Virus record (IMG/VR): IMGVR_UViG_3300030090_006645
DNA length: 64,000 nucleotides
Reading direction: 5' to 3' (one strand)
Source: an uncultured virus (IMG/VR IMGVR_UViG_3300030090_006645)
Taxonomy: Duplodnaviria; Heunggongvirae; Uroviricota; Caudoviricetes
How positions within the stretch are numbered: position 1 is the stretch's first letter; every line of letters starts with the position of its first letter. Below the pieces are notes generated by a model. The model did no database searches and was not told the DNA's origin. It saw only the letters and a list, made by a program, of their open reading frames with translations. The position numbers and the translations under genes were made by a program. Positions 60,192 to 60,498 of this stretch are shown here, piece by piece.

Positions 60192-60289
60192 AAAAGGCTC
60201 TTGGTTGGTCAAATAAATCATAAATATTAGTGAGGATTTTTGACTCTTAACATTCTGCACCACGAGAAGGTGGCCTTTTTTCGCAGAAC
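60192..60289 (-). ncRNA. HDV-like (delta-like) self-cleaving ribozyme candidate
   Basis: P1 GUUCUGC/GCAGAAU with G.U at position 1; P2 AAAAGGC(C)/(G)A-GCCUUUU; P3 ACC/GGU; L3 UUCUCGU; P4 GUCAAA/UUUGAC plus AAUC/GAUU; J4/2 CCAA. Confidence 0.75.
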
Positions 60290-60300
60290 AAAGGTGTATA

Positions 60301-60498
60301 TTATAACACCTTAATTACATCAGATTTTTTTACTTCAACTACTTCAAATTCTACTGAATCGTTTGCAAAATCTGCATTAACTTTTACTTCTGCATCTGTA
60401 ACTGATACAGCTGAAACTAAATAAGCTTCTTTTTTCCAAGTAATTTTTCTACCATTATCTGTAGCTACTTTTACTCTTGCTAAATAATACATATCCAT
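60301..60498 (-). CDS. DUF4494-like protein
   Basis: YYLARVK...KEAYLVSAVSVTDAEVKV...FEV..V; Bacteroidota-type family; AAGGAG SD. Confidence 0.7.
   Translation of the reverse strand: MDMYYLARVKVATDNGRKITWKKEAYLVSAVSVTDAEVKVNADFANDSVEFEVVEVKKSDVIKVL

What the first reader, a model, noticed from the sequence alone, without database searches (positions are those of the whole stretch)
60192..60312. HDV/CPEB3-like ribozyme fold in the leader of the phage bS21 gene
Seen: on the minus strand the gap between the DUF4494-like gene and bS21 maps element by element onto the HDV nested double pseudoknot. P1 is GUUCUGC (60289-60283) with GCAGAAU (60258-60252), 7 bp with a G.U wobble at the predicted cleavage site. 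P2 is AAAAGGCC (60279-60272) with G-(A bulge)-GCCUUUU (60200-60192). P3 is ACC/GGU closing L3 UUCUCGU, and a G follows P1 for P1.1. P4 is GUCAAA/UUUGAC plus AAUC/GAUU. J4/2 is CCAA, with the putative catalytic C at 60204. A 7-bp hairpin AAGGUGU/ACACCUU (60312-60291) lies just upstream of the cut. Established: HDV L3 is UCCUCGC(U) and CPEB3 L3 is UUCACGU; phage theta ribozymes are HDV-like but are described next to tRNA 3' ends. Inference: this one would cut a polycistronic mRNA ~135 nt upstream of the bS21 start, making a 5'-OH, pseudoknot-capped bS21 message. An ATATTTAT late-promoter-like word also lies inside the P4 loop.
Basis: partly seen in the sequence, partly recalled or inferred. Interest (0 to 1): 0.9.

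Follow-up and report, generated by a model that had tools for sequence, protein, structure and literature searches.

The report
HDV-like self-cutting ribozyme, marine phage
The flagged 100 bases fold like the hepatitis-delta self-cutting RNA, and the same fold is conserved with matching base-pair changes in over a hundred marine phage sequences, where it probably cuts a long message between genes; it is not tied to the ribosomal protein gene next to it here.

Summary
On the minus strand, 60289->60192 has P1, P2, P3, P1.1, P4 and a C-N-R-A J4/2 in the HDV order, with a hairpin just upstream.

It is not chance. My descriptor hits once in the window, against 0.0025-0.005 hits per shuffled window.

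It belongs to a conserved family:
- 41 of 42, 37 of 37 and at least 120 pattern matches in viral and marine metagenome contigs.
- In 100 distinct sequences, 98.6% of pair cells are paired, against 30-45% for slid controls.
- 17 of 30 pairs show compensatory changes, including 4 of 8 in pseudoknot helix P2.
- The putative catalytic C (60204) is invariant, even in scans that did not force it.

Rfam 15 has no family that reaches threshold. The best is RF02682 at 24.3 bits, gathering score 44. The P3-L3 core is identical to published theta ribozymes, but this family has a full P4 and never abuts a tRNA 3' end.

The bS21 link is incidental. The commonest setting is RecA -> ribozyme -> 5'-3' exonuclease (18 of 42 loci), and bS21 follows in 5 of 42.

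The most likely role is self-cleavage that splits a one-strand polycistronic message. Cleavage is untested. This scan noted the same family before on other DNA.

The parts
60291..60312 (-). Upstream hairpin AAGGUGU-UAUAAUAU-ACACCUU. It ends 1 nt before the cut and holds the DUF4494-like stop codon in its loop.
   Evidence: present in the MFE fold. Conserved in 16 of the 17 upstream sequence types that matched my DUF4494-type filter; the 17th, L139, is a false match with no hairpin. One type (L186) shows a compensatory change, GUG->GUA with CAC->UAC.
60283..60289 (-). P1 5' strand GUUCUGC. The predicted cleavage is 5' of G60289, between 60290 and 60289.
   Evidence: 5 of 7 P1 pairs have changes on both sides. 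G.U at the first pair in 93 of 100 sequences, G-C in 7.
60280..60282 (-). J1/2 (GAA)
   Evidence: Aligned to the CGAA.AA consensus of RF02682.
60272..60279 (-). P2 5' strand AAAAGGCC
   Evidence: 4 of 8 P2 pairs have a change on both sides, in few sequences.
60259..60271 (-). P3 (ACC/GGU) closing L3 UUCUCGU. C60266 is the P1.1 partner.
   Evidence: P3 is invariant in 100 of 100. L3 is U U C N C G U. The same core occurs 443 times in the theta ribozyme table.
60251..60258 (-). P1 3' strand GCAGAAU (60258-60252), then G60251 (P1.1 with C60266)
60207..60246 (-). P4: an 11-bp interrupted stem with a 15-nt loop. The first loop bases, CUCACUA (60234-60228), are nearly invariant.
   Evidence: 8 of 11 P4 pairs have changes on both sides and 99.5% of cells are paired. 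Loop conservation.
60201..60206 (-). J4/2 AACCAA. The putative catalytic C is at 60204, in a C-Y-R-A context.
   Evidence: C in all rows of A3. One row, L296, lacks the true 3' half and is aligned there by chance. The position was left free in the scans.
60192..60200 (-). P2 3' strand G-(A bulge)-GCCUUUU
   Evidence: C-G to U-A exchanges occur at both pairs that flank the bulge.
60184..60191 (-). U-rich tract AUUUUUG directly after P2. Its role is unknown.
   Evidence: Conserved in most members. Shortened where a tRNA starts 2-6 nt after P2.
60301..60498 (-). Upstream gene: 65-aa DUF4494-like protein
   Evidence: Pfam PF14902, E 2.8e-5, 24.5 bits, just under the cutoff of 27.
59783..60154 (-). 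Downstream gene: 123-aa phage bS21
   Evidence: Pfam PF01165, 34.7 bits, above the cutoff. PHROG 21469.

Best explanation
Window 60289->60192 (minus strand) is a member of a conserved family of HDV-like (delta-like) self-cleaving ribozymes. The family is carried by large uncultured marine phages.

Inferred mechanism: as the one-strand polycistronic transcript is made, the RNA folds into the nested double pseudoknot (P1, P1.1, P2, P3, P4). C60204 in J4/2, with a bound metal ion, catalyses attack of the 2'-OH of the nucleotide at 60290 on the phosphate 5' of G60289.

This would leave two products:
- an upstream message that ends in a 2',3'-cyclic phosphate just after a small hairpin, 11 nt past the DUF4494-like stop codon;
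- a downstream RNA that begins with a 5'-OH and the folded ribozyme. Here that RNA is bS21, Hsp20 and the 5'-3' exonuclease.

On this reading it is a host-independent 'punctuation mark' in the replication/recombination gene block. It would be functionally comparable to the RNase III sites between phage T7 early genes (recalled knowledge). It is not a device specific to bS21.

Shown: the fold, its conservation and covariation, the invariant active-site residues, and the intergenic, sense placement. Inferred: the cleavage itself and its effect on the two RNAs.
For: - All elements are present at the stated positions.
- There is one descriptor hit in the window, against 0.0025-0.005 per shuffled window.
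- The best Rfam match is an HDV-like model that begins at G60289.
- In 100 distinct sequences, 98.6% of pair cells are paired, against 29.8-45% with the partner slid.
- 17 of 30 pairs have changes on both sides: P1 5 of 7, P2 4 of 8, P4 8 of 11. 0 of 500 shuffles reach the observed covariation score.
- C60204, L3 U-U-C-N-C-G-U, G60251 and A60201 are invariant or nearly so. The scans left J4/2 and P2' free, and one search also left P3 and L3 free.
- The P3-L3 core ACC-UUCNCGU-GGU is the one found in theta ribozymes (443 occurrences in supplementary file 5). Three tRNA/theta ribozyme pairs of that class were tested in vitro and were inactivated (passage seen).
- All 39 loci with a scorable upstream gap have the element between same-strand ORFs. 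The upstream gap is at least 4 nt and the downstream gap at least 19 nt.
- In the window, 77 of 81 ORFs lie on the minus strand and only 3.5% of the DNA is intergenic, so long co-transcripts are plausible.
- Where a tRNA starts 2-6 nt after P2, there is no room for a promoter. The ribozyme must be transcribed together with what follows.
- There is one copy per contig in 5 of 5 long contigs and one copy in the window.
Against: - No cleavage assay and no RNA data exist for this element.
- P3 and P1.1 never vary, so covariation says nothing about them. Parts of the sequence were also fixed by my search patterns.
- P2 covariation rests on few sequences: 2, 2, 1 and 2 cells.
- The Rfam score is well below threshold: 24.3 against 44 bits. 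Only 5 of 20 other members were even listed, at 22.8-25.2 bits.
- Two conserved features are not explained by a plain ribozyme: the CUCACUA start of the P4 loop and the U-run after P2.
- The effect of a 5'-OH or a cyclic-phosphate end on RNA stability in the unknown host is assumed.
Confidence: 0.7

Rival explanations
1. One reading: a dedicated leader of the phage bS21 gene. The cut would exist to make a pseudoknot-capped bS21 message and so control bS21 expression.
For: In this window, and in L168 and L170, bS21 starts 26-45 nt after the element. In L139 bS21 follows after one tRNA.
Against: bS21 follows in only 5 of 42 loci. The 5'-3' exonuclease follows in 19 of 42 (18 of them after RecA), and Hsp20, unknown ORFs or tRNAs follow in the rest. 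The 114-aa and 90-aa ORFs that follow it elsewhere are not bS21. The 70%-identical bS21 genes have no ribozyme upstream, and their phages keep the ribozyme elsewhere (L175, L201).
Confidence: 0.07
2. A ribozyme combined with a terminator. The GC core of P2 (GGCC/GGCC), flanked by an A-run and a U-run, would act like the stem of an intrinsic terminator. RNA polymerase would stop just after the ribozyme, and self-cleavage would then trim the ribozyme off the upstream message. Downstream genes would need their own promoter.
For: A U-rich run directly follows P2' in most of the 100 sequences. An A-run precedes the P2 5' strand.
Against: The terminator scan found none here. The 'loop' of such a stem would be 72 nt. 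In 4 distinct arrangements a tRNA begins 2-15 nt after P2, so read-through is required there. The TAnnTTTG word that overlaps the U-run is the only intergenic one in the window, against 61 in coding sequence, so a promoter is not supported.
Confidence: 0.13
3. A conserved structured RNA with an HDV-like secondary structure that does not cut itself. It could be a protein-binding or RNA-stabilising element. The nearly invariant P4 loop would be its functional site.
For: CUCAC in the P4 loop is 98-100% conserved with no pairing partner found. No cleavage data exist. The Rfam score is below threshold.
Against: Every residue that defines the HDV-like active site is kept: G1.U, L3 U..C.CG, P1.1 C-G, and J4/2 C-N-R-A. 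The P3-L3 core matches that of theta ribozymes. Three tRNA/theta pairs of that class were tested in vitro (passage seen).
Confidence: 0.09
4. A chance resemblance in AT-rich intergenic DNA.
For: Across a very large scan, a motif seen 0.0025 times per shuffled window would turn up by chance somewhere.
Against: There are 100 distinct homologues with compensatory changes in three helices. The family model scores 131.8 bits here, E 2e-26.
Confidence: 0.01

Closest known systems
Theta ribozymes and other minimal HDV-like ribozymes of Caudoviricetes (Kienbeck et al. 2024, PMC10879173; I read the abstract, Results part 1, the Methods section on motif searches, passages, and searched 9 supplementary files)
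   Same: Both are HDV-like double pseudoknots carried by tailed phages. The P3-L3-P3' core is identical: ACC-UUC(A/U/C)CGU-GGU occurs 443 times in their tRNA-associated table. J4/2 is C-N-R-A in both. Their paper also lists 526 non-tRNA hits, 493 of them in non-coding regions and over 96% in sense with the nearest gene, with function unknown. About 90% of their predicted hosts are Bacteroidota, and a T9SS sorting domain in this window points the same way.
   Different: Theta ribozymes are minimal: a 6-nt 'L4' and no P4. This family has an 11-bp P4 with a conserved loop. Theta ribozymes cut at tRNA 3' ends. Here 0 of 198 family loci have a tRNA ending at the cut, and when a tRNA is adjacent it lies 2-15 nt after the ribozyme's 3' end. 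Theta ribozymes are over 80% from gut phages, whereas these contigs are marine. Family-specific strings are absent from the 9 readable supplementary files. One file was too large to read and one PDF is unreadable.
Rfam RF02682, HDV ribozyme from Faecalibacterium prausnitzii (drz-Fpra-1)
   Same: It is the best Rfam match, and it is aligned from model position 1 at G60289. The two share CGAA.AA in J1/2, ACCU...CGUGGUG in P3/L3, and a C-N-A-A-G-A junction with a bulged A at the start of P2'.
   Different: The score is 24.3 bits against a gathering score of 44. Of 20 other members, 5 scored 22.8-25.2 bits and the rest were not listed. P4 is much longer here, and the model aligned its own J4/2 inside this P4 loop.
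Genomic HDV and mammalian CPEB3 ribozymes
   Same: The order of helices is the same, P1 is 7 bp starting with G.U, P3 is 3 bp, and the catalytic C is at the start of J4/2.
   Different: No sequence-level match was reported by Rfam for RF00094 or RF00622 at E <= 10. Those occur in a viroid-like RNA genome and in a mammalian intron. This one lies between genes of a dsDNA phage.
RNase III processing sites between phage T7 early genes (recalled knowledge)
   Same: The proposed job is the same: cutting a long one-strand phage transcript between genes and leaving a hairpin at the 3' end of the upstream piece.
   Different: Those sites need a host enzyme. Here the RNA would cut itself. This is a functional analogy only.

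Membership tests
HDV-like (delta-like) self-cleaving ribozymes | Nested double pseudoknot in the order P1-J1/2-P2-P3-L3-P3'-P1'-P1.1-P4-J4/2-P2' | tested here: met
   98.6% of pair cells are paired in 100 sequences, against 30-45% for slid controls.
HDV-like (delta-like) self-cleaving ribozymes | 7-bp P1 that begins with G at +1, paired with U (or C) | tested here: met
   G.U in 93 and G-C in 7 of 100. 5 of 7 P1 pairs covary.
HDV-like (delta-like) self-cleaving ribozymes | Pseudoknot helix P2 supported by compensatory change | tested here: met
   4 of 8 pairs have changes on both sides, but in only 1-2 sequences each. These include C-G to U-A at both pairs flanking the bulged A.
HDV-like (delta-like) self-cleaving ribozymes | 3-bp P3 closing a 7-8 nt L3 with conserved U...C.CG, and P1.1 between an L3 C and the G after P1 | tested here: met
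   All are present and invariant in 100 of 100. Because they never vary, covariation cannot speak for or against them.
HDV-like (delta-like) self-cleaving ribozymes | Catalytic C at the first position of J4/2, in a C-N-R-A context | tested here: met
   C60204-C-A-A here. The family shows C-Y-R-A, with C in every intact member, in scans that left this position free.
HDV-like (delta-like) self-cleaving ribozymes | Mg2+-dependent self-cleavage 5' of G1, abolished by C-to-U in J4/2 | not testable with these tools
   This needs an in vitro transcription and cleavage assay.
Rfam RF02682 HDV-F-prausnitzii | Score at or above the curated gathering score of 44 bits | tested here: not met
   24.3 bits. 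There was no gathering-level Rfam hit in the window. 5 of 20 other members scored 22.8-25.2 bits.
Theta ribozymes (Kienbeck 2024) | Minimal form without a P4 helix (short L4) | tested here: not met
   An 11-bp P4 with 8 covarying pairs. Theta examples have a 6-nt L4.
Theta ribozymes (Kienbeck 2024) | Cleavage site within +/-5 nt of a tRNA 3' end | tested here: not met
   The window has 0 tRNAs. 0 of 198 family loci have a tRNA ending at the cut. The tRNAs found start after the ribozyme.
Theta ribozymes (Kienbeck 2024) | Shared catalytic core sequence (P3-L3-P3') | tested here: met
   ACCTTC[A/T/C]CGTGGT occurs 410 + 32 + 1 times in supplementary file 5.
Intrinsic (rho-independent) terminator | Short GC-rich hairpin directly followed by a U-run | tested here: inconclusive
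   The consensus scan found 0 in 59700-60700. However, P2 closes next to a conserved U-run, and that scan cannot see this geometry.

The most novel reading that the evidence does not exclude
The ribozyme is a portable 'cassette boundary'. In these roughly 170-190 kb marine phages it would mark one hot spot behind recA where accessory host-takeover genes (bS21, Hsp20, tRNAs, small unknown ORFs) are swapped in and out. It would give whatever lands behind it a context-independent, 5'-OH, ribozyme-capped transcript, making it a natural counterpart of synthetic ribozyme insulators. Its nearly invariant P4 loop (CUCACUA) would be a docking site for a phage or host factor that tunes the cut. When a tRNA follows directly, the ribozyme would serve as a self-detaching 5' leader, the mirror image of the theta arrangement.
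Probability: 0.2. Interest if true: 0.7.

Novelty: new member of a known kind. Interest (0 to 1): 0.45.

Why it matters
This is a well-supported, widespread family of self-cleaving RNAs that the current Rfam release does not capture. I did not find it in the papers I could search.

It links the minimal theta ribozymes of gut phages to full-length, P4-bearing relatives in marine phages through an identical catalytic core. It shows phage HDV-like ribozymes in a setting other than tRNA 3' ends: between protein genes of the replication block, or just ahead of tRNAs.

If cleavage is confirmed, it would be a host-independent way for a phage to cut its long messages. It would also be a ready-made natural insulator part.

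For this window specifically, the ribozyme should not be read as a bS21 control element.

Tried and rejected
- Whole genome of the window: none is held.
- blastn of 59783-60498 against GenBank phages: no match.
- Species-representative prokaryote genomes: the family pattern gave 1 stretch, in a Dormiibacterota MAG. The family model matches only 17 nt of it (15.2 bits, E 0.15), so I treat it as chance.
- Second model hit in the window, at 24932-25018: 14.7 bits, E 0.38. Rejected as noise.
- Public RNA runs: no RNA holder was listed for 59700-60700.
- Promoter reading of the U-run (TAnnTTTG at 60191): this is the only intergenic instance in the window, against 61 in coding sequence, so it is not supported. 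The sigma-70-type scan gave 3 sites, against 5.6 expected.
- ATATTTAT in the P4 loop as a promoter word: that stretch varies among relatives.
- T9SS tail on the 179-aa neighbouring ORF (60511-61050), suspected by eye: not found by NCBIfam, PHROGs or Pfam.
- RNA-repair enzymes (RNA ligase, kinase/phosphatase) in the window: none among the 49 ORFs scanned at E <= 1e-5. The window is only part of the genome.
- Literature searches for a prior report of this family: none was found. The library lacks most subscription journals, including the original HDV-like ribozyme surveys, so a prior report cannot be excluded.
- Three paper calls failed on term format. Two were re-sent in corrected form and one was dropped.

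Full report
**What is there.**
- P1 is GUUCUGC (60289-60283) with GCAGAAU (60258-60252).
- P2 is AAAAGGCC (60279-60272) with G60200, a bulged A60199, and GCCUUUU (60198-60192).
- P3 is ACC/GGU around L3 UUCUCGU.
- G60251 follows P1 and can pair with C60266 (P1.1).
- P4 is an interrupted 11-bp helix within 60246-60207.
- J4/2 is AACCAA, with C60204 in a C-N-R-A context.
- A 7-bp hairpin (60312-60291) ends one base before the predicted cut and carries the upstream stop codon in its loop.
- RNAfold recovers the hairpin, P1, P3 and P4. The energy is -26.1 kcal/mol, z = -1.9.

**Is it more than chance?**
- At gathering thresholds, Rfam 15 finds nothing in the window.
- A permissive scan of 60100-60400 puts the F. 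prausnitzii HDV-like model (RF02682) first. It is aligned from model position 1 at G60289, but scores only 24.3 bits against a threshold of 44 (E 0.013 for that 301-nt stretch).
- A descriptor I wrote after seeing the site finds this one place in both strands of the window.
- In 400 dinucleotide shuffles of the window, the P1/P3/L3 core appeared in 5 and the full motif in 1-2.
- That alone would not settle a scan of many windows. The homologues do.

**Relatives.**
- The bS21 protein led to 12 viral loci. Only L001, a 99%-identical copy of this phage, has the element. The 70%-identical bS21 genes have a hairpin plus T-run upstream instead.
- Searching for the element itself worked. A loose pattern gave 116 loci, of which 6 passed the full descriptor.
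- A family pattern gave 42 loci, of which 41 are members.
- A pattern that leaves P3, L3, P1', J4/2 and P2' free gave 37 of 37 members.
Of 92 unique sequences, 91 have an intact 3' half and one (L296) is truncated.
- No GenBank phage matched.
- The one hit in species-representative prokaryote genomes is a 17-nt chance match.

**Covariation.** In a MAFFT alignment of 100 distinct sequences I scored the proposed structure, pseudoknots included.
- 98.6% of pair cells are standard pairs, against 29.8-45% when the partner is slid by 1-3 columns.
- 17 of 30 pairs change on both sides: P1 5 of 7, P2 4 of 8, P4 8 of 11.
- 0 of 500 column shuffles reach the observed covariation score.
- P2, the helix that makes the fold a double pseudoknot, is supported by C-G to U-A exchanges at both pairs flanking the bulged A, and by an A-U to C-G exchange. 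Each occurs in only 1-2 sequences.
- P3 and P1.1 never vary, so they are conserved but not tested by covariation. In part they were fixed by my patterns, though they stayed invariant, where they were free.
- The active-site signature is intact. The first P1 pair is G.U in 93 of 100 (G-C in 7). L3 is U-U-C-N-C-G-U. G60251 is present in 100 of 100. J4/2 is A-C-Y-R-A, with C at the 60204 position in every intact member.
- A covariance model built from 39 members scores the window site at 131.8 bits (E 2e-26) and finds no second copy.
- Five long related contigs (75-116 kb, about half complete by CheckV) each hold one copy.

**Setting.**
- The window is part of a large phage. It encodes gp32-like SSB, RecA, DnaB, a 5'-3' exonuclease, DNA polymerase III alpha, RNR, ThyX, a GroEL-type chaperonin and a long sugar-modification cluster.
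- 77 of 81 ORFs lie on the minus strand and only 3.5% of the DNA is intergenic.
- A 1080-aa protein carries a T9SS C-terminal sorting domain (PF18962, 38.7 bits). This hints at a Bacteroidota host. The nearest cultured RecA, however, is from a Microcystis phage at 55.5% identity, so the host stays open.
- In every locus with a scorable upstream gap (39 of 42: 41 viral loci plus the window), the element lies between same-strand ORFs.
- The commonest arrangement is RecA -> ribozyme -> 5'-3' exonuclease, in 18 loci.
- Others are DUF4494 -> ribozyme -> bS21 (3, of which 2 are this phage), a DUF4494 variant -> bS21 (1), ribozyme -> tRNA-Gln -> bS21 (1), DUF4494 -> Hsp20 (2), DUF4494 -> unknown small ORFs (6), DUF6445 -> ... 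tRNA-Gln/Pro -> ligase (3), and several unknown pairs.
- In this window the order is RecA ... DUF4494 - ribozyme - bS21 - Hsp20 - exonuclease - DnaB. It looks as if extra genes had been inserted around a ribozyme that otherwise sits between recA and the exonuclease gene.
- Two phages whose bS21 is 70% identical keep the ribozyme 27-30 kb away from bS21 (L175, L201). The element is therefore not a bS21 device.

**Relation to tRNAs.**
- The window has no tRNA.
- Among 198 family loci, many of them redundant, none has a tRNA ending at the cut.
- In four distinct arrangements a tRNA (Ala, Ala, Gln, Pro) begins 2-15 nt after the end of P2 on the same strand.
- That leaves no room for a separate promoter, so the ribozyme is co-transcribed with what follows. 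It is also the reverse of the theta arrangement.

**Upstream of the cut.**
- At least ten unrelated upstream sequence types occur, many with a stable hairpin ending 0-7 nt before G1.
- In the DUF4494-linked type the hairpin is conserved in 16 of the 17 sequence types that matched my DUF4494-type filter. The 17th, L139, is a false match with no hairpin. There is one compensatory change, in L186.
- I read the hairpin as the future 3' end of the upstream RNA and/or a guard against misfolding of P1. This is inference.

**Comparison with what is known.**
- Kienbeck et al. 2024 (PMC10879173) describe minimal, P4-less HDV-like 'theta' ribozymes in gut Caudoviricetes. These mostly lie at tRNA 3' ends, and about 90% of predicted hosts are Bacteroidota.
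- They also list 526 non-tRNA hits, 493 of them in non-coding regions and mostly in sense with the nearest gene, with function unknown.
- Their supplementary table holds the very core found here, ACC-UUC(A/U/C)CGU-GGU, 443 times.
- Strings specific to this family (the P2-P3 junction and the P4 loop) are absent from the 9 supplementary files I could search. One file was too large to read and one PDF is unreadable.
- So this is the same catalytic core with a full P4 domain, in marine phages, in a different genomic context.
- Five literature searches found no report of it. Subscription-journal surveys are not in the library.
- This scan had already noted the same family on two other genomes (e1-5764688, e1-6123812). 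My results agree with those notes.

**How it most likely works (about 0.7).** It self-cleaves 5' of G60289 during or soon after transcription. This would split the long minus-strand message in two. One piece is an upstream RNA ending in a cyclic phosphate behind a hairpin. The other is a downstream RNA (bS21, Hsp20, exonuclease ...) starting with a 5'-OH and the folded ribozyme. The fold and its conservation are shown. Cleavage and its consequences for RNA stability or translation are inferred.

**Open points.**
- The nearly invariant CUCACUA at the start of the P4 loop is unexplained.
- The conserved U-run after P2 is unexplained. It could make the element double as a terminator. The TAnnTTTG word in it is not supported as a promoter.
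- No RNA run was listed for this stretch.

**Verdict.** The bS21-specific role is not supported. It is a new, well-supported member family of a known ribozyme class, of moderate interest.

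Noticed in passing
window 61272-61492 (minus strand), in the 260-nt gap after recA: A roughly 220-nt RNA-like element. A 7-bp 'acceptor' stem (UAAGAUG/CAUCUUA) closes a multi-branched fold that ends in a canonical tRNA T-arm (GCAGG-UUCGAAU-CCUGC). 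MFE is -63.9 kcal/mol, z = -3.35, and 0 of 200 shuffles fold as well. ARAGORN and Rfam call nothing there. It matches the 'tRNA-shaped RNA' noted by an earlier report on another genome.
   Followed up: partly
window 15495-18737 (minus strand): A 1080-aa protein with a T9SS C-terminal sorting domain (PF18962, 38.7 bits, cutoff 27). This hints that the host is a Bacteroidota.
   Followed up: no
window 2006-63846: 77 of 81 ORFs of at least 60 aa lie on the minus strand and only 2,169 nt (3.5%) are intergenic. Only 16 gaps exceed 40 nt.
   Followed up: partly
window 23438-41045 and 50457-51521: A long block of sugar-nucleotide and glycan-modification genes: NDP-hexose 2,3-dehydratase, GDP-mannose 4,6-dehydratase, epimerases, C-methyltransferase, sulfotransferase, aminotransferase and glycosyltransferases.
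   Followed up: no
window 43106-44731, 59268-59702, 59783-60154: The phage carries a GroEL-type chaperonin, an Hsp20 and a bS21. This is a set of proteostasis and translation takeover genes.
   Followed up: no
L134, L136, L144, L178, L190, L201 and others, about 60 nt upstream of the cut: A conserved non-coding stretch (..UAAGACCGGCAUCA..CGAA..) lies between the DUF4494-like gene and the ribozyme in one subgroup. No stable fold is predicted, and it is absent from this window.
   Followed up: no
L296 (metagenome locus): A family member with an intact 5' half (P1, P2 5' strand, P3, L3, start of P4) whose 3' half is replaced by unrelated sequence. It is probably a decayed or recombined copy.
   Followed up: no
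L002-L009, L011 (upstream of bS21 relatives): These bS21 genes are preceded by a GC-stem hairpin with a T-run and then a conserved AT-rich stretch. This looks like a terminator followed by the gene's own start signals, not a ribozyme.
   Followed up: partly
window 60301-60498; L168:1597-1791: The 63-65-aa 'DUF4494' ORFs match only part of the 139-position Pfam profile: positions 12-62 in most loci and 91-136 in L168. They are half-size relatives.
   Followed up: no
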